From contig OZ240248.1 of assembly GCA_965198235.1 (NCBI GenBank), forward strand, positions 2,112,001 through 2,176,000: a stretch of 64,000 bases of DNA. Direction: 5' to 3'. The stretch is from Candidatus Poribacteria bacterium. Its GTDB lineage: Bacteria > Poribacteria > WGA-4E > WGA-3G. The translations under genes were made by a program, and so were the position numbers. How positions within the stretch are numbered: the stretch's first letter is position 1; every line of letters begins with the position of its first letter. The notes below the pieces were generated by a model that saw only the letters and a program-made list of their open reading frames with translations, had not been told where the DNA came from and did no database searches. This document shows, in pieces, positions 43,346 through 54,151 of the stretch.

Positions 43346-43419
43346 TGGGCGGTACAGGACTTGAACCTGTGACCTCTTGCATGTCAAGCAAACGCTCTAG
43401 CCACCTGAGCTAACCGCCC
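43346..43419 (-). tRNA. tRNA-Val(GAC), CCA not encoded
   Basis: GGGCGGTTAGCTCAG...TTGACAT...GGTTCAAGTCC...CCGCCCA. Confidence 0.95.
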
Positions 43420-43435
43420 ATCTAAAGAAAAAGAA

Positions 43436-43510
43436 TGGAGGTGGCGGTCGGAATCGAACCGACGAATAAGAGTTTTGCAGACTCTGGCCTTACCACTTGG
43501 CTACGCCACC
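43436..43510 (-). tRNA. tRNA-Cys(GCA)
   Basis: GGTGGCGTAGCCAAGTGGT...CTGCAAA...GGTTCGATTCC...CCA. Confidence 0.95.
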
Positions 43511-43518
43511 ATAGAAGA

Positions 43519-43593
43519 TGGAGCGGGAGACGAGATTTGAACTCGCGACCTCCACCTTGGCAAGGTGGAGCTCTACCACTGAGCTACTCCCGC
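43519..43593 (-). tRNA. tRNA-Gly(GCC)
   Basis: GCGGGAGTAGCTCAGTGGT...TTGCCAA...GTTCAAATC...CCA. Confidence 0.95.
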
Positions 43594-50167: not shown

Positions 50168-51022
50168 TCAACGGTGTGTCGGGATTTTATCTTCGGTTGG
50201 ACGGGGATTGTGCACCCAATGCCCACTCGGATCGATGCCTCTGGCGACAATCGCGCGTTGGTTCCAGTCGTTAGAGGCGCGGACCTCAGACGGCACGAAC
50301 CGCATCGTCAACCCACAACGCCGTCGGTCTGAGGTGTTCGGTTCGGAACCGTGCAATAGCAGGTCCGAATGCAGCGACATCTGCCCGGCCTTCATCTCAA
50401 ATGGGAATGGTGCGTCTCCGTATCGTGTAGCATTATGCACTGTCTGACCCAGCACATTCTTTTCCTCAGCGGTGCTCGGTTCAAATACGATTTGTCCGTG
50501 TAGATGTGACTTTGGAATGACGGTCATTGCACCGTTTTCGACAGCGGCATCGTCAATTGCGAGCCATACGGTGACAGTCTTACTCGGCGAGAGGGGCCAA
50601 TAGGAAGCATCCTGATGCCAACTCACCTGCTTTATATCACCCGGCATCTTGCAGAAGTAGTGCGTTCCCCAACAGATGAGCGTTTCACCCAGTAGATCTT
50701 GCACGTAATCCAAAATTCTGTCTTCAGTAATCAGATCGTGGAGTCCTGTACAAGTGGTGTGCCATCCGTTGATGGAGTAACTATTCATCCCCGCTGCTAA
50801 TGCCTTTTCCATGAGCTGATCGAAATAGGTGCGATGTGCTGCGATCTCCGCTTCAGAAAAGACATCTAATGGTGAGATAAAACCTTTCTCATTGAAGTGC
50901 TCAATTTGGGCATGCGTTAGGGTTGATGAATTCTCGTTTTCAACGGGAAAAAATTGAAGGGTTCGATTGAGTTCCGGCATTGCATCCGTAATTGGCATTG
51001 GAGCGTCCTCTTTTCTCCACAT
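50168..51022 (-). CDS. Phytanoyl-CoA dioxygenase (PhyH) family
   Basis: WHQD, LHGS..N.S..RR. Confidence 0.9.
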   Translation of the reverse strand: MWRKEDAPMPITDAMPELNRTLQFFPVENENSSTLTHAQIEHFNEKGFISPLDVFSEAEIAAHRTYFDQLMEKALAAGMNSYSINGWHTTCTGLHDLITEDRILDYVQDLLGETLICWGTHYFCKMPGDIKQVSWHQDASYWPLSPSKTVTVWLAIDDAAVENGAMTVIPKSHLHGQIVFEPSTAEEKNVLGQTVHNATRYGDAPFPFEMKAGQMSLHSDLLLHGSEPNTSDRRRCGLTMRFVPSEVRASNDWNQRAIVARGIDPSGHWVHNPRPTEDKIPTHR

Positions 51023-51149
51023 AGATTAGAAGTTTGTATTGTGTGCTATGTCAAATTGAAGTCAAAGAAAGTAATACTTCGACCGTTTCGCTTCTGACAT
51101 ACGATCCGGGCGCGTTCGATACCAGCGGATCTGCTACTGAATCCGAACA

Positions 51150-51301
51150 TCTGTTTTCAGCTGTCCCCAGCGGGTGGCAAGTTTGCCATTCGCCACTGAC
51201 ATTGTTCCAGCCATCGGGAAGTCCATTATCGAAATTTTCCTGCCATACCCCTGCCGAAGCCATAGAAGTTAATAGGGTGACCATGAATATGAATAGCGCA
51301 T
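51150..51301 (-). pseudogene. Frameshifted 5' fragment of a secreted protein gene
   Basis: GGAGG-ATG at 51301 is out of frame with 'LFIFMVTLLTSMASAGVWQENFDNG..W...SGEW'; truncated. Confidence 0.45.
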
Positions 51302-51464
51302 CGGTTCCTCCAGTCTATCAATCATAATCCTGACTCAGACAACTAAACGCAACCACCAATAATTATATTTATATTAACTGATAAGTCAAGTTAAACCTGT
51401 CAAGGCACCCAAACCTAAAGGATTGGGCTTGTGCTTCATAGCAGTCTGCCTTCCGAGGAAGGGC

Positions 51465-52667
51465 TTACGTCTGCTCCACAGAGGGATCCAAGGCAGCCCT
51501 CAAGATGTTTATCGCAGCGTTGACATCCCGATCGTGGTGTGAACCACACTCAGGACACGTCCATTGCCTATCATTTAGAGAAAGTTTATCGTTGTGATGC
51601 CCACAATCCGAACACGGTTTCGTGGTAGGAGTCCACTGCCCGACTTGAAGGAACTCACGATTATGTTTGAAACATTTGAACTTCAATATCTCCACAAACT
51701 GATAAAAGGCGAGGTCAGAGACTTTCCGTCCCCAAAGGCGTTTCATTGCCTCAAGGTTGAGTGTCTCAGTGACGAGGGTATCAAACCGCCGACACAGGTC
51801 AGTCGCCAGTTTGTAGTGCCAGTCCTTGCGTTGATTGGAAATCTTGGTGTAAAGCCGTGCCAATTCTCTTACCGCACGCCACCAGTTACCAGAACCTTTT
51901 TGCTTACGGCTTACAGATTTGCTGAGTTTGCGGAGTTGGGTCAAGGACGCTTTCAAGGGTTGCGGGTGTTGGATTTTCTCACCGGTGTTCAGCGTCAGAT
52001 AGGTCTCCATGCCGAAGTCCACCCCTACGCTTTTACCTGTAGCGGGCAGAACTTCTTTGGAGGTGTTATCTGTCACGACATACAGCCAATACTCACCGGC
52101 AGCATCGCGTCCGATTTGGATATACCGGACGTTTCCCTTCCAATCGAGATGGTGGTGATACAAGATATTCCTGCGGACAAAGACCAACTTCTGTTTCACT
52201 GTATCCCATTCTTTGAAAGAAAGGCGAAGCGTGCCTCTCGGAATCGGAGAAGTTTCTCCCTCCGGGGGTTTCACCCAAACCTTGTAGCCTGTTTGGAACT
52301 TCGCAGAACGGAGTTTGCCGCGGCGTTTGAACTGCGGAGGACCCACACGTCTGCCACGTCTACCGTTTTCAATCCAATCAAAGAATCGTTCGTAGCCGAT
52401 ATGGATACGGATAATCACTGCGTCAAGCGTATCTCGCGGTATCCATGTCCAGTGTGGCTTGGTGCGTTCGAGCAACTTCGTCAGATGCGGTTGCAGACGA
52501 TACCTACCGGCGTATTTACCATAGATGCGGTAATATCGCCGTTCCAATGCCAAGAAGTGGTTGTGGACATCTTCAAGGTCATCGAACATATTCCCCAAGC
52601 GCATATTCTGCCGGTGATTGCGGATCTTTTTTTTATACGTTCTGCGAGCCTGTTTTCGTTTTTTCAT
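51465..52667 (-). CDS. tnpB: RNA-guided endonuclease TnpB
   Basis: RuvC-I GVDFG, RuvC-II ETLN, CSDC/CPEC zinc finger, RuvC-III DRDVNAAINI. Confidence 0.95.
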   Translation of the reverse strand: MKKRKQARRTYKKKIRNHRQNMRLGNMFDDLEDVHNHFLALERRYYRIYGKYAGRYRLQPHLTKLLERTKPHWTWIPRDTLDAVIIRIHIGYERFFDWIENGRRGRRVGPPQFKRRGKLRSAKFQTGYKVWVKPPEGETSPIPRGTLRLSFKEWDTVKQKLVFVRRNILYHHHLDWKGNVRYIQIGRDAAGEYWLYVVTDNTSKEVLPATGKSVGVDFGMETYLTLNTGEKIQHPQPLKASLTQLRKLSKSVSRKQKGSGNWWRAVRELARLYTKISNQRKDWHYKLATDLCRRFDTLVTETLNLEAMKRLWGRKVSDLAFYQFVEILKFKCFKHNREFLQVGQWTPTTKPCSDCGHHNDKLSLNDRQWTCPECGSHHDRDVNAAINILRAALDPSVEQT

Positions 52668-52764
52668 GGGTTTTCACGGATCACGTCCTTAACCCCTACA
52701 GAGTGGGTAGGCAGACACGCAACCTTGCGATTGCGCTCTGTATGTCTGCCAACGTGATACATCT

Positions 52765-52793
52765 ATTAAACCACAATTTACTTAGAATGTCAA
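52765..52793 (-). promoter_or_regulatory. sigma70 promoter for tnpB
   Basis: TTGACA-17-TTTAAT with TG extension. Confidence 0.65.
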
Positions 52794-52913
52794 GTGTTTT
52801 TTCAAAAAAAAACGCCTTGGCCTAACATATAAGGGCGGTTTTTCCTCCCAAGTCTAAAGACTTGGGTTTCCAAACCGAAACGTAGATGAAAAATGGAGTC
52901 ATTCAATTCTCCT

Positions 52914-52972
52914 GTAGGAGGGATCTCCGAATTCCAACTTCTTCCTGTAGGAGGGATCTTCCGATCGCGACC
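52914..52972 (+). repeat. Tandem GTAG REP palindromes
   Basis: GTAGGAGGGATCTCCGAATTCC and GTAGGAGGGATCTTCCGATCGCGAC. Confidence 0.7.
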
Positions 52973-53143
52973 CTGACAACTGAAAACCAAAGGTCCCTTG
53001 CACGAAAATTCCATTTGACATTTAGGGTGAATAAGTGTATATTAATCGAATAATGTGTTAACATAATGCGTTGTCCATCTCCTTTCGACAAAAGAAAAAT
53101 AGACATGCCTGCAGCGACCTACCTATTGGAAAAACAATAAAAA

Positions 53144-54151
53144 ATGGACGAAAAACGAGCGAGTGGACGCTACTATACGCGTGGGAATCCGTTTCAGTTA
53201 GAACCGTTCCAGACGTGGGTTAAAGCGTCCAATTTAGAACAACAGGTAGTTTTAGAACCGTTTGCGGGTGCGAAGGACATTCCACGTTTGATTGACGCAG
53301 CGCATCTGCAGTACCGAGATTGGGCATTTTTCGACATTGCACCAGGGACAAAAGGAATTGTGCAACGCGACACATTCGCTAACTTTCCCAAAGGGTTCAA
53401 TGTCTGCATTACCAATCCACCGTGGTTGGCACGCAACTCGGCAACTCGGCGCGGCTTACCTTTCCCAGAAGCAACGCGTTACGATGACCTCTACAAATAC
53501 GCGCTTGAGCAATGCCTGATGCATTGTGAGTGGGTCGCGGCAATTATCCCAGAGGCGTTCATTCGGAGCGGACTGTTCCTGAAAAGGTTACACGATTTCA
53601 TCTCTTTAGTCCCACAAAAGCAAGATAAGACAAATTACCCCCCTGATAAGGGGGGCAGGGGGGTTTCGGTTATGTTTGAGGACACAGAACACCCTGTCGG
53701 TCTCGCTCTATTTACGCCGGATGCAACATCGGGCGTTAGGATCTGGCGCAACAATCAATTTCTTGGCACCATGAGTGAACTACGCGAACACCTACCGCAA
53801 CCTTCTTCCAATCGTAGTATTGTGTTCAACGACCCACAGGGAAATCTCGGACTCATCGCTATAGACAATACCGTTTCCGCCTCTATCCGTTTCTGTCCAC
53901 CAGAGGAACTAAAAGACTATCCTATCCGCGTTCATTGCCGTTCAATTACAAAGATTGGTGTGCCGTGGCGTGTGGATATAGATATGCTCAACACTCGCCT
54001 GACAACAATCCGTGAGAAAACCCACGATGTTTTTTTGACAGCATTCAAGGGCTTACGTCGCGATGGACACTACCGACGACGGTTAGATTGGGCTTTGACA
54101 CGGGCAATTGTGAACGCACAGCATCTACAACTTGCAATGAACATGGAGTAG
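53144..54151 (+). CDS. Putative orphan adenine DNA methyltransferase
   Basis: GRYYT, EPFAG (motif I), TNPPW (motif IV). Confidence 0.75.
   Translation: MDEKRASGRYYTRGNPFQLEPFQTWVKASNLEQQVVLEPFAGAKDIPRLIDAAHLQYRDWAFFDIAPGTKGIVQRDTFANFPKGFNVCITNPPWLARNSATRRGLPFPEATRYDDLYKYALEQCLMHCEWVAAIIPEAFIRSGLFLKRLHDFISLVPQKQDKTNYPPDKGGRGVSVMFEDTEHPVGLALFTPDATSGVRIWRNNQFLGTMSELREHLPQPSSNRSIVFNDPQGNLGLIAIDNTVSASIRFCPPEELKDYPIRVHCRSITKIGVPWRVDIDMLNTRLTTIREKTHDVFLTAFKGLRRDGHYRRRLDWALTRAIVNAQHLQLAMNME

What the first reader, a model, noticed from the sequence alone, without database searches (positions are those of the whole stretch)
52680..52758. Compact pseudoknotted RNA in the tnpB 5' leader
Seen on the minus strand between promoter and ATG: ATCACGT/ACGTGAT closing stem; GGCAGACA/TGTCTGCC stem; CGCAATC-GCAA-GGTTGCG hairpin with GNRA loop; and a bulged TACAGAG complementary to CTCTGTA in the loop of a downstream ACCC/GGGT hairpin. 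The probable RBS (AAGGA) abuts the closing stem. TnpB RNAs are normally described at the 3' end. Inference: a cis-regulatory switch, a small ribozyme, or a separate tracr-like part of the guide scaffold (only ~66 nt lie between the tnpB stop and the right end).
Basis: partly seen in the sequence, partly recalled or inferred. Interest (0 to 1): 0.7.

Follow-up and report, generated by a model that had tools for sequence, protein, structure and literature searches.

The report
Pseudoknotted 5' leader RNA of tnpB
A compact, pseudoknotted RNA fold sits at the very start of the messenger for a transposon-borne RNA-guided nuclease (TnpB), is copied with hundreds of related elements in sponge-symbiont bacteria, matches no catalogued RNA family, and most likely sets how much nuclease is made.

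Summary
On the minus strand, 52760-52678 folds into P1, P2, P3 and P4, plus a 7-bp pseudoknot between a bulge and the P4 loop. In 97 distinct copies 97.4% of cells pair and 28 of 35 pairs change on both sides.

It lies 4-5 nt after a conserved promoter and just before tnpB in TnpB-only IS200/IS605 elements. The relatives' records are titled Candidatus Poribacteria. Rfam 15 has no match.

Both registers covary with the 5' strand. The second ends about 5 nt before a start codon with no canonical Shine-Dalgarno.

Best reading (inferred, about 0.5): a cis-acting 5'-terminal leader that controls tnpB translation and possibly mRNA stability, through a two-register closing helix.

- The tracr-like idea found no support.
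- No known ribozyme family matches, but self-cleavage was not tested.

I rate it a new RNA family and a new variant of transposon leader control. Its function is untested.

The parts
51399..52884 (-). Whole TnpB-only IS200/IS605-family element, about 1486 bp. Both ends are inferred.
   Evidence: Similarity among own-genome copies starts about 113-128 nt before the leader and stops about 1350-1367 nt after it.
52885..52889 (-). Left-flank pentamer TCATC, the putative target/TAM (inferred).
   Evidence: In the left-end alignment the flanks end in TTATC, TCATC or TTTAC just before the conserved left end. Not tested.
52847..52866 (-). Left-end subterminal hairpin CCCAAGTCTTTAGACTTGGG.
   Evidence: Read. 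Conserved in the left-end alignment. Similar to the right-end hairpin.
52765..52793 (-). Promoter: -35 TTGACA (52793-52788), 17-nt spacer, TG (52773-52772), -10 TTTAAT (52770-52765).
   Evidence: Read. Across 68 copies: 55 have at least 5 of 6 matches to the -35, 46 have the TG, 40 have TATAAT, and in 66 the -10 ends 4-5 nt before P1. The consensus scanner did not list the window's own site, because its -10 has T at position 2.
52752..52760 (-). P1 5' strand GTATCACGT, at or within 1-3 nt of the expected RNA 5' end.
   Evidence: The transcription start is inferred from promoter geometry.
52743..52750 (-). P2 5' strand GGCAGACA.
   Evidence: Pairs with 52717-52710. Compensatory variants seen: GGCAAGCA/TGCTTGCC, GGACCGACA/TGTCGGTCC, GGTAGAGA/TCTCTACC.
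52736..52742 (-). Pseudoknot 5' strand TACAGAG, a 7-nt bulge between P2 and P3.
   Evidence: Pairs with 52703-52697. 6 of 7 pairs show double changes. 42 distinct 7-mers occur in 97 copies, and all 7 pairs are standard in 86 of 97.
52718..52735 (-). P3 hairpin CGCAATC-GCAA-GGTTGCG.
   Evidence: 6 of 7 pairs show double changes and 99.7% of cells pair. U-G pairs occur 23 and 30 times at two positions, which marks this strand as the folded one. The loop varies, and one copy carries a 28-nt insertion.
52710..52717 (-). P2 3' strand TGTCTGCC.
52692..52708 (-). P4 hairpin: ACCC (52708-52705) with GGGT (52695-52692). Its loop carries the pseudoknot 3' strand CTCTGTA (52703-52697).
   Evidence: The P4 stem is nearly invariant.
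52678..52686 (-). Unit 1, ACGTGATCC: the 3' strand of P1 in register a.
   Evidence: Helix 93.4% paired, 8 of 9 pairs with double changes.
52673..52678 (-). Unit 2, CGTGAA: a tandem second copy of the P1 3' strand (register b). It gives 5 bp in this copy and 8-9 bp in many others, and ends 5 nt before the ATG.
   Evidence: Helix 90.5% paired, 7 of 8 pairs with double changes. Unit spacing is 7 nt in 36 of 36 copies, and the gap to the start is 5 nt in 29 of 36. RNAalifold on the MAFFT alignment chose this register.
51465..52667 (-). tnpB ORF, 400 aa, start ATG 52667-52665.
   Evidence: Pfam OrfB_IS605 (9.7e-24) and Cas12f1-like TNB (4e-21). phmmer E-values are 1.2e-40 to solved TnpB chains (8BF8/8EXA) and 3.3e-44 to a designed TnpB-like nuclease (9YYG). 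In the printed 9YYG alignment GVDFG, ETLNL and HDRDVNAA align with GVDLG, VEDLN and HDRDENAA. Reading these as the RuvC D-E-D residues is recalled knowledge.
51399..51427 (-). Right-end hairpin CCCAATCCTTTAGGTTTGGG (51427-51408) and terminal GCCTTGAC. This is the presumed end of the guide-RNA scaffold.
   Evidence: That the guide RNA ends here is inferred from what is known of TnpB systems. No RNA data.

Best explanation
This is a structured RNA domain of about 83 nt that forms the extreme 5' end of the tnpB mRNA. It belongs to non-autonomous (TnpB-only) IS200/IS605 elements that have multiplied in Poribacteria.

Architecture (shown):
- A closing helix P1 carries two arms: P2-P3 and the short hairpin P4.
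- A 7-nt bulge between P2 and P3 pairs with the whole P4 loop. This is a bulge-to-loop pseudoknot.
- The element's own promoter ends 4-5 nt before P1, so the transcript should begin at or inside the first pairs of P1.
- The 3' strand of P1 occurs twice in tandem, 7 nt apart. The 5' strand can pair with unit 1 (register a), which leaves about 12 nt free before the AUG. Or it can pair with unit 2 (register b), which ends about 5 nt before the AUG.
- Main-type copies have no canonical Shine-Dalgarno. Unit 2 sits where diverged single-unit variants carry AAGGA or GGAG.

Mechanism (inferred): the domain acts in cis on tnpB expression.
- The base-paired 5' end and compact fold protect the mRNA.
- The choice between registers a and b opens or occludes the ribosome landing site. 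This keeps production of the nuclease low or conditional.
- What shifts the register is unknown. Candidates are folding kinetics, Mg2+ or temperature, a protein such as TnpB, or a small molecule.
For: Structure:
- Searches give z -4.13, 97.4% pairing, 28 of 35 pairs with double changes, and slid controls of 33-48%.
- Strand and RNA level: U-G pairs are frequent in P3 and P1 (23, 30 and 23 of 97). On the other strand they would be mismatches.

Position:
- The -10 ends 4-5 nt before P1 in 66 of 68 copies. The -35 is kept in 55 of 68 and the extended -10 TG in 46 of 68.

Exclusive link to tnpB:
- 25 of 25 own-genome covariance-model hits precede a tnpB-like ORF, and 22 of these ORFs are at least 284 aa.
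- All 38 scanned TnpB-relative loci carry the leader, ending within about 40 nt of the TnpB match start.
- 37 of 39 leader loci from other genomes are followed by a TnpB ORF. One is too short to tell and one is a degraded tnpB.
- The one tnpB that directly follows tnpA has no leader.

Two registers:
- P1a is 93.4% paired with 8 of 9 covarying pairs. P1b is 90.5% paired with 7 of 8.
- At the most variable column the same three pair types occur in both registers (CG 42, AU 41, GC 8 against CG 40, AU 40, GC 8).
- By my reading of the rows listed, only unit 2 gives a full 6-bp match in 9 of 68 copies.
- RNAalifold chose register b unprompted.

No canonical SD:
- Duplex energy to the genome's own 16S tail is -4.6 kcal/mol for leaders, -5.8 for host starts and -3.8 for random 18-mers.
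- Host genes do use SD: 49% against 15% background.

Strong constraint:
- The leader is 70.7-94% identical in DNA in front of TnpBs that are only 28-89% identical in protein to the window's TnpB, or 100% for its own copy.
Against: - No experiment and no mapped RNA 5' end exist. The only RNA data are contigs from one study.
- Nested-energy models favour register a in 80 of 96 copies, by 3.9 kcal/mol on average. The window's own register b is only 5 bp. Register b may therefore be rarely populated unless something stabilises it.
- Diverged variants (L108, L105) have one unit and an exposed canonical SD. The pseudoknot domain therefore has a role that does not need RBS occlusion.
- The tandem units could in principle be kept alike by conversion between them, rather than by pairing.
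- Copies within one genome are related, so the shuffle statistics overstate independence.
Confidence: 0.5

Rival explanations
1. Static 5'-terminal stabiliser or translation enhancer. The fold only caps the mRNA 5' end and presents the start region. There is no switching, and unit 2 is simply the ribosome landing sequence.
For: - Register a is the more stable in 80 of 96 copies.
- Single-unit variants expose a canonical SD directly after P1.
- The promoter places the RNA start at P1.
- Recalled knowledge: base-paired 5' ends slow 5'-end-dependent decay in bacteria.
Against: - A plain hairpin would do this job. It does not explain the pseudoknot.
- It does not explain why unit 2 tracks every change in the 5' strand.
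- It does not explain why, by my reading of the rows listed, unit 2 is the better partner in 9 of 68 copies.
Confidence: 0.2
2. Ligand- or protein-sensing switch. The pseudoknotted three-way junction is an aptamer for a metabolite, an ion, TnpB itself or a host protein. Binding decides between the two P1 registers.
For: - Two mutually exclusive, covarying helices next to a start codon are the classic expression-platform signature.
- P2, P4 and the junction strands are strongly conserved in sequence in the main type.
Against: - The junction and loop nucleotides are not kept in the diverged variants L108 and L105, which keep only the architecture.
- One leader serves TnpBs of 28-100% identity and three different 3' scaffolds. 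That argues against recognition by TnpB.
- The motif is found only in a mobile element, never before a host gene.
Confidence: 0.12
3. Single-stranded DNA structure used in transposition. The fold forms in the top DNA strand and helps or regulates the Y1 transposase.
For: - The folded strand is the tnpB sense strand. By recalled knowledge this is the active top strand in this family.
- The genome encodes 6 Y1 transposases.
- The P1 5' strand, GTATCAC, resembles the right-end terminus CTATCAC.
Against: - The fold lies about 125 nt inside the left end, beyond the subterminal hairpin that this transposase family recognises (recalled).
- It is registered to the promoter and the start codon, not to the element ends.
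- The right-end terminus does not covary with P1. The window has GCCTTGAC with GTATCAC.
Confidence: 0.05
4. Self-cleaving ribozyme that processes the 5' end or releases a small RNA.
For: - A compact pseudoknotted fold in a mobile element.
- The duplicated P1 3' strand could re-pair after a cut (speculation).
Against: - No Rfam ribozyme family matches at E <= 10 or E <= 0.01.
- No invariant unpaired core survives in the diverged variants.
- Exact RNA-library contigs run from inside the leader into the ORF: 52282-52748, 52390-52761 and 52358-52731, each with 0 differences.
Confidence: 0.04
5. Separate tracr-like piece of the TnpB guide RNA, pairing with the 3' scaffold.
For: Only the short distance (66 nt) between the stop codon and the right end.
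Against: - Leader against its own element's last 200 nt gives -46.9 kcal/mol. Shuffled 3' ends give -48.4 and other elements' 3' ends give -46.6 (20 elements).
- Three unrelated scaffold types share the leader.
- The 3' regions contain several hairpins of their own, by my reading of the alignment.
Confidence: 0.03
6. Fold-back inhibition. In read-through transcripts from outside the element, the RNA copy of the -10 region pairs with the pre-AUG segment and silences tnpB. Transcripts from the element's own promoter escape.
For: - GGTATA in the extended -10 is complementary to TATACC before the ATG in many copies. The window has GGTTT and AAACC.
- The start region is less accessible in modelled read-through RNA: 0.34 against 0.54, lower in 62 of 68 copies.
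Against: - Shuffled upstream sequence gives almost the same drop: 0.385, with own below shuffled in 43 of 68.
- The own -10/pre-AUG duplex is -5.5 kcal/mol, against -4.8 for cross pairs and -5.1 within a class. Own is better in only 39 of 68.
Confidence: 0.05

Closest known systems
IS200 tnpA 5'UTR (translational repression by mRNA secondary structure, with art200 and Hfq). PMC4513863, abstract read.
   Same: A leader RNA structure in the same IS superfamily that limits translation of the element's own gene.
   Different: - It regulates the transposase tnpA, not tnpB.
- By recalled knowledge it is a simple stem-loop that hides the RBS, plus an antisense RNA.
- It has no pseudoknot and no duplicated strand.
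- There is no sequence relation: no Rfam family matched at E <= 10.
TnpB guide RNA (omega/reRNA) at the 3' end of tnpB. PMC8612924 and PMC10278001, seen in search listings only.
   Same: A structured RNA, pseudoknotted by recalled knowledge, encoded by the same kind of element and read from the same strand.
   Different: - The guide RNA overlaps the 3' end of the ORF and the right end, and continues into the flank as the guide.
- The leader is at the 5' end, is bounded by the promoter and the ATG, has no flank-derived segment, and shows no complementarity to the 3' scaffold.
IStron group I introns in IS605/IS607 elements. Abstracts seen in the listing.
   Same: A second functional RNA carried by tnpB-bearing transposons, besides the guide RNA.
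   Different: - Group I introns are several hundred nucleotides long, catalytic, and match Rfam models.
- This fold is about 83 nt, matches nothing, and sits downstream of an internal promoter.
Three-way-junction riboswitch aptamers with a long-range loop contact (purine; THF-I, with its loop-to-internal-bulge pseudoknot). Recalled, not tested.
   Same: - A closing P1 whose formation is coupled to an expression platform.
- Two arms held side by side by a loop contact or pseudoknot.
   Different: - No Rfam match.
- The junction strands are very short (1-2, 1 and 5-6 nt) and are not conserved in diverged variants.
- No ligand is known, and the motif is confined to a mobile element.
5'-proximal pseudoknot operators of translation (phage T4 gene 32; ribosomal protein S15 mRNA). 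Recalled.
   Same: A pseudoknot just upstream of a weakly structured ribosome binding region, used for autogenous control.
   Different: - Those are bound by the encoded protein.
- Here one leader serves very different TnpBs, and no binding data exist.
Arc repressor acting on IS605 tnpB promoters. bioRxiv 10.64898/2026.09.24.754181, passages read.
   Same: A dedicated brake on tnpB expression built into the element.
   Different: - It is a protein acting on DNA at the transcriptional level.
- That text never uses 'UTR', 'leader' or 'secondary structure', and has a single 'translation' hit that lies in its reference list.

Membership tests
Any Rfam 15 family (4227 models, including known riboswitches, ribozymes, IS-associated and RAGATH motifs) | Covariance-model match to the family | tested here: not met
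   - Window 50800-53400 at E <= 10: only three chance-level matches (two snoRNAs and PhotoRC-I, E 4.7-7.8), none in the leader.
- Whole window at gathering scores: 3 tRNAs.
- 14 other element loci at E <= 0.01: only tmRNA and tRNAs.
TnpB guide RNA (omega/reRNA) | Lies at the 3' end of tnpB and the right end, and runs into the flank, which supplies the guide | tested here: not met
   The leader lies between an internal promoter and the ATG, about 125 nt inside the left end.
TnpB guide RNA (omega/reRNA) | Binds TnpB as part of the scaffold, or pairs with it | tested here: inconclusive
   There is no excess complementarity to the element's own 3' 200 nt. Protein binding is not testable here.
Riboswitch | Mutually exclusive alternative pairing that involves the aptamer's closing helix and the expression signal | tested here: met
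   P1a and P1b both covary. P1b ends 5 nt before the start codon in 29 of 36 copies.
Riboswitch | Specific ligand binding by a conserved pocket | not testable with these tools
   The junction nucleotides are not kept in variants L108 and L105. That argues against a conserved pocket but does not exclude one.
Small self-cleaving ribozymes (hammerhead, twister, twister-sister, pistol, hatchet, HDV-like) | Conserved catalytic core that matches the family model | tested here: not met
   no match.
Small self-cleaving ribozymes (hammerhead, twister, twister-sister, pistol, hatchet, HDV-like) | Site-specific self-cleavage | not testable with these tools
   Contigs from an RNA library span the leader and the ORF start. 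This does not exclude partial cleavage.
IS200/IS605-family TnpB-only element (the carrier) | TnpB with the RuvC D-E-D residues and a zinc-finger domain | tested here: met
   - Pfam OrfB_IS605 and Cas12f1-like TNB.
- E 1.2e-40 to solved TnpB chains (8BF8/8EXA).
- GVDFG, ETLNL and HDRDVNAA align with the matching motifs of the designed nuclease 9YYG.
- CSDCGH and CPECGS are read directly in the query.
- Calling these the RuvC and zinc-finger residues is recalled knowledge.
IS200/IS605-family TnpB-only element (the carrier) | Subterminal hairpins at both ends, no terminal inverted repeats, insertion next to a short conserved target | tested here: met
   Similar hairpins occur at 52866-52847 and 51427-51408. 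The left flanks end in TTATC, TCATC or TTTAC. The target motif is inferred only.
Pseudoknotted RNA (bulge to hairpin loop) | Crossing helix supported by compensatory changes | tested here: met
   6 of 7 pairs show double changes, in a MAFFT alignment and in 97 copies. The helix was not part of the search model.

The most novel reading that the evidence does not exclude
The leader is a new class of RNA sensor that gates an RNA-guided nuclease.
- A pseudoknotted aptamer-like domain flips a 'slipping' closing helix between two 7-nt-offset registers, to turn an SD-less start on or off.
- The input could be a cellular signal or the TnpB ribonucleoprotein itself.
- The fast-changing pseudoknot could act as a lineage-specific barcode. 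For example, sibling transcripts could kiss in trans and so sense copy number.
- Its variable pairs already differ in 3 of 5 positions at 6-7% third-codon divergence.
- It moves as a cassette between copies.
Probability: 0.12. Interest if true: 0.85.

Novelty: new variant of a known kind. Interest (0 to 1): 0.62.

Why it matters
TnpB is among the most abundant prokaryotic genes. It is the ancestor of Cas12 and a compact genome editor.

What I saw in print on control of its expression:
- processing of its own mRNA (search listing only);
- a protein repressor on the promoter (passages read).

A 2026 review of these systems contains none of the words UTR, leader, translation or riboswitch.

A strongly covarying, uncatalogued RNA domain is dedicated to tnpB. 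It is present in more than a thousand covariance-model matches across the 151 genomes searched. This would add a post-transcriptional layer to how such nucleases are kept in check.

It would also give RNA biologists a clean natural example of a bulge-to-loop pseudoknot coupled to a two-register helix. It is small enough for direct structural and reporter work.

Tried and rejected
- RNA evidence. Only assembled contigs of four RNA-library runs from one study were available. Exact contigs stop at 52748, 52761 and 52731, and the bin over the promoter (52756-52811) has almost no depth. This fits a start at P1, but contigs cannot show RNA ends and DNA may be present, so I do not use it as evidence.
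- Cyanobacterial origin. I first guessed this from GCGATCGC-like motifs. I dropped it when the relatives' records named Candidatus Poribacteria.
- Fold-back inhibition by read-through transcripts. The effect is close to that of shuffled upstream sequence.
- Non-canonical SD. UGAU of unit 2 could pair with AUCA of the 16S tail, and the P1 5' strand could mimic the tail. That is only 3-5 bp, and duplex energy lies between random and host genes. I keep it as an idea only.
- Leader against 3' scaffold pairing: no signal.
- Link between the right-end terminus CTATCAC and the P1 strand GTATCAC: no covariation.
- Motif outside these genomes. Two exact-pattern scans of metagenome contigs and one of viral contigs found 0. 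blastn against plasmids and phages found nothing. The patterns were exact and of the main type only, and genomes of other phyla could not be searched with the model. So this shows 'not found in what was searched', not absence.
- 'Poribacteria-1' motif. I recall this name from the Weinberg 2017 motif set. The term occurs in 0 papers and not in that paper's main text. The supplements are closed, so I could not compare. If that motif is in Rfam it does not match this element.
- Loci left out of the 100-source model searches: L003, L008 and L039 (copies of loci already included), L023 (a 25-nt chance-like hit), and L101, L102 and L107 (truncated or interrupted TnpB matches).
Full report
**What is at the coordinates**

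On the minus strand the window reads, from 52793: TTGACA, 17 nt, TG-n-TTTAAT, four bases, then the fold, then ATG at 52667. The ORF 51465-52667 is a TnpB.
- Pfam gives OrfB_IS605 (9.7e-24) and Cas12f1-like TNB (4e-21).
- phmmer gives E 1.2e-40 to solved TnpB chains (8BF8/8EXA) and 3.3e-44 to a designed TnpB-like nuclease (9YYG).
- In the printed 9YYG alignment the motifs I take to be the RuvC D, E and D (GVDFG, ETLNL, HDRDVNAA) are aligned. Two CxxC pairs are read directly in the query. Naming these motifs is recalled knowledge.

- P1: 52760-52752 with 52686-52678
- P2: 52750-52743 with 52717-52710
- P3: 52735-52718
- P4: 52708-52705 with 52695-52692
- Crossing helix: 52742-52736 with 52703-52697

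The nested part is the minimum-free-energy fold. It is -37.0 kcal/mol, z -4.13, and 0 of 200 shuffles fold as well.

**It is a repeated, conserved module**

- The own genome holds 25 copies at 70.7-94% DNA identity by blastn, and 25 by a covariance model built from them.
- All 25 are followed by a tnpB-like ORF. 22 of these ORFs are at least 284 aa, and three are truncated.
- The downstream proteins are only 28-89% identical to the window's TnpB. The leader is therefore far better conserved than the gene it precedes.
- The model finds the leader in 38 of 61 related genomes: every one of 36 genomes of the same genus, plus the window's own genome and one genome of another family.
- It finds it in 79 of 151 genomes drawn from the phylum: 56 of 56 in the genus, 14 of 38, 1 of 2, 1 of 1 and 6 of 20 in four other genera, and none in 17 further genera. 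These searches use strict filters, and kin are not independent.
- A TnpB-based scan of one genome per species returned 41 loci. 39 are in records titled Candidatus or uncultured Poribacteria, and 2 are in a MAG titled 'uncultured bacterium'.
- All 38 loci that I passed to the model have the leader, ending within about 40 nt of the TnpB match start. Three truncated loci were left out.
- Of 39 leader loci from other genomes, 37 are followed by a TnpB ORF. One is too short to tell and one is a degraded tnpB.

**The carrier element**

- Similarity among copies begins about 113-128 nt before the leader and ends about 1350-1367 nt after it.
- The ends carry similar hairpins: CCCAAGTCTTTAGACTTGGG on the left and CCCAATCCTTTAGGTTTGGG on the right.
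- The left flanks end in TTATC, TCATC or TTTAC. The right end stops at (G)CTATCAC, or GCCTTGAC in the window.
- This is the anatomy of a TnpB-only IS200/IS605 element. In the window it spans about 52884-51399.
- The genome has six Y1 transposase genes that could mobilise such elements in trans.
- The one tnpB that directly follows a tnpA has no leader.
- Three unrelated 3'-end (guide-scaffold) types share the same leader.

**Covariation**

- MAFFT alignment of the 23 distinct own-genome copies, not fitted to any structure:
  - 97.4% of cells form standard pairs, against 84.4% in shuffles and 28-42% with partners slid.
  - 16 of 35 pairs change on both sides.
  - The pseudoknot is 98.8% paired, with 6 of 7 pairs covarying.
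- 97 distinct copies aligned to the model:
  - 97.4% paired and 28 of 35 pairs with double changes.
  - Covariation score 0.418 against 0.138. None of 500 shuffles reaches it.
  - The pseudoknot was not in the model.
- U-G pairs are common in P3 and at the base of P1 (23, 30 and 23 of 97). The tnpB sense strand is therefore the one that folds.
- P2 shows whole-helix replacements: GGCAAGCA/TGCTTGCC, GGACCGACA/TGTCGGTCC, GGAGACCAGCA/TGCTGGTTTCC.
- The P3 loop is free to vary, and one copy carries a 28-nt insertion in it.
- A diverged copy in the own genome (L108:1496-1590) keeps the architecture with different sequences: P2 GGTAGAGA/TCTCTACC and pseudoknot ATGTTAC/GTAACAT. It is found only with filters off, at 43.6 bits. 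The family is therefore wider than the filtered searches show.

First, the promoter is part of the module (68 copies).
- 55 keep at least 5 of 6 matches to TTGACA.
- 46 keep the extended -10 TG.
- 40 have TATAAT.
- In 66 the -10 ends 4-5 nt before the first P1 nucleotide.
- The RNA should therefore begin at or just inside P1, with no single-stranded 5' tail. This is an inference, since no 5' ends are mapped.

Second, the 3' strand of P1 is duplicated in tandem. Examples are CTTGATA-CTTGATA, CGTGATA-CGTGAAA, CCTGATA-CCTGATA, TGTGATG-TGTGATA and CTGGTGA-CTGGTAA.
- Every variant matches its own 5' strand.
- Counted formally, the helix with unit 1 is 93.4% paired with 8 of 9 covarying pairs.
- The alternative helix with unit 2 is 90.5% paired with 7 of 8.
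- Of 68 copies, both units give a full 6-bp match in 36, one unit in 27, and neither in 5.
- By my reading of the listed rows, in 9 of those 27 the matching unit is unit 2.
- The units are 7 nt apart in 36 of 36 copies. Unit 2 ends 5 nt before the start codon in 29 of 36.
- RNAalifold, run on the MAFFT alignment without guidance, chose the unit-2 register.
- Single-sequence folding of the window chose unit 1.
- Nested-energy models favour unit 1 in 80 of 96 copies, by 3.9 kcal/mol on average, and unit 2 in 15.

**The ribosome binding site**

It is not conserved and lies about 19 nt from the ATG.
- Main-type copies have no GGAG- or AGGA-like motif before the start.
- Their duplex energy with the genome's own 16S tail (GGATCACCTCCTTTCT) averages -4.6 kcal/mol. 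Host gene starts average -5.8 and random 18-mers -3.8.
- The genome itself uses Shine-Dalgarno sequences: 49% of 2070 long ORFs, against 15% background.
- In the two diverged single-unit variants, a canonical AAGGA or GGAG follows P1 directly, where unit 2 sits in the main type.

**How it most likely works**

Shown:
- a real, strand-specific, pseudoknotted fold;
- its fixed place between the element's own promoter and the tnpB start;
- its exclusive link with tnpB;
- two mutually exclusive closing-helix registers, both under selection.

Inferred:
- The domain acts in cis on tnpB expression.
- The paired 5' end and compact fold protect the mRNA.
- Register a leaves about 12 nt free for the ribosome. 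Register b buries all but about 5 nt before the AUG.
- The trigger is unknown.

I put about 0.5 on this reading. About 0.2 goes to a purely static stabiliser or enhancer, and about 0.12 to a true ligand- or protein-sensing switch. Small shares go to a DNA-level role, a ribozyme, a tracr-like RNA and fold-back inhibition.
- The tracr-like idea fails a direct test: leader against own 3' 200 nt gives -46.9 kcal/mol, against -48.4 shuffled and -46.6 cross.
- The fold-back idea is barely better than shuffled controls.

**An unexplained feature**

- The five variable pseudoknot pairs turn over much faster than the gene.
- Among element pairs whose ORFs differ at only 6-7% of third codon positions, 3 of 4 already differ in 3 of 5 pseudoknot pairs. 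The fourth pair differs in none.
- 42 distinct pseudoknot 7-mers occur among 97 copies, yet all 7 pairs are standard in 86 of 97.
- Aligning L081 with L079 and L080 shows why, at least in part. The promoter, P1, the junction, both units and the ORF start are almost identical, with at most three changes in about 100 nt after the ATG. The P2-pseudoknot-P3 block and the matching loop strand are replaced together.
- This looks like cassette exchange, that is gene conversion, between copies. What maintains such a diverse pool is unknown.

**Comparison with what is known**

- Rfam 15 has nothing like it.
- No paper in the library holds both Poribacteria and TnpB.
- A 2026 review of these systems contains none of the words UTR, leader, translation or riboswitch.
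- A 2026 preprint describes a protein (Arc) repressing tnpB promoters.
- The nearest functional analogue is the IS200 tnpA leader, where mRNA structure, an antisense RNA and Hfq limit translation (abstract).
- Architecturally it recalls three-way-junction aptamers with a long-range loop contact. That is a recalled resemblance, not a membership.
- I recall a 'Poribacteria-1' motif from the Weinberg 2017 set. I could not find it in print, and the supplements are closed.

**Limits**

- There is no experimental RNA data beyond contigs from one study.
- Copies are related, so the statistics overstate independence.
- The large alignment is model-fitted.
- Genomes outside this phylum could not be searched with the model. 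Exact-pattern scans of metagenome and viral contigs, and blastn of plasmids and phages, found nothing.

**Verdict**

This is an uncatalogued RNA family and a new variant of transposon leader control. Its mechanism remains to be tested.

Noticed in passing
window 52910-52961 (minus strand), just outside the left end: Two near-identical 20-nt direct repeats (CGGA(A)GATCCCTCCTACAGGA) lie 12 nt apart. The 16-nt core occurs 13 times in the genome (4 on one strand, 9 on the other). It is a small dispersed repeat of unknown nature.
   Followed up: partly
window 51362-51389 (minus strand), just outside the right end: A promoter-like site, TTGACT-16-TATAAT (11 of 12 matches), starts about 10 nt after the element's right end and reads away from it.
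   Followed up: no
L108:1496-1590 (minus strand) = G000:C1 about 240995-241089; also L105:414-506: These are diverged versions of the leader. The architecture is the same, P2, the pseudoknot and the junction sequences differ, there is only one P1 3' strand, and a canonical AAGGA or GGAG follows it directly.
   Followed up: partly
L081:230-560 against L079 and L080:224-560: Mosaic leaders. The surroundings are almost identical, but the P2-pseudoknot-P3 block and the matching loop strand are replaced together, as if exchanged as a cassette between copies. L081 also has an unrelated sequence in place of the left end.
   Followed up: partly
L082:373-497 and L082:2033-2140: A 28-nt GC-rich insertion extends the P3 loop in two leaders of one locus. 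A second leader begins about 400 nt after the end of the first TnpB match, which suggests tandem elements.
   Followed up: no
own genome copies at C1:2575478, 2106906, 5120916, 79488: Palindromic insertions of about 45-95 nt (MITE-like) sit between the left-end hairpin region and the -35 box in four copies.
   Followed up: no
right ends of own-genome copies against the P1 5' strand: The terminal heptamer of most right ends, CTATCAC, closely resembles the P1 5' strand GTATCAC. The left-flank motif TTATC shares TATC with it. No covariation between them was seen, and the meaning, if any, is unknown.
   Followed up: partly
L022:2837-3127, L014:16-89 and 2005-2078; window 43346-43593: A tmRNA gene and tRNA genes lie within 1.5 kb of two other element copies. 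The window has a cluster of three tRNAs.
   Followed up: no
window 53144-54151 (+) and 50168-51022 (-): The element's neighbours are an ORF with a weak Eco57I-type methylase match (E 4.4e-4, below the Pfam cut-off) and a PhyH-family dioxygenase (E 1.4e-29).
   Followed up: no
G000:C1:118729-120191 (L109): This is the only tnpB found directly abutting a Y1 tnpA. The tnpB start lies at the end of tnpA, with no intervening promoter or leader.
   Followed up: partly
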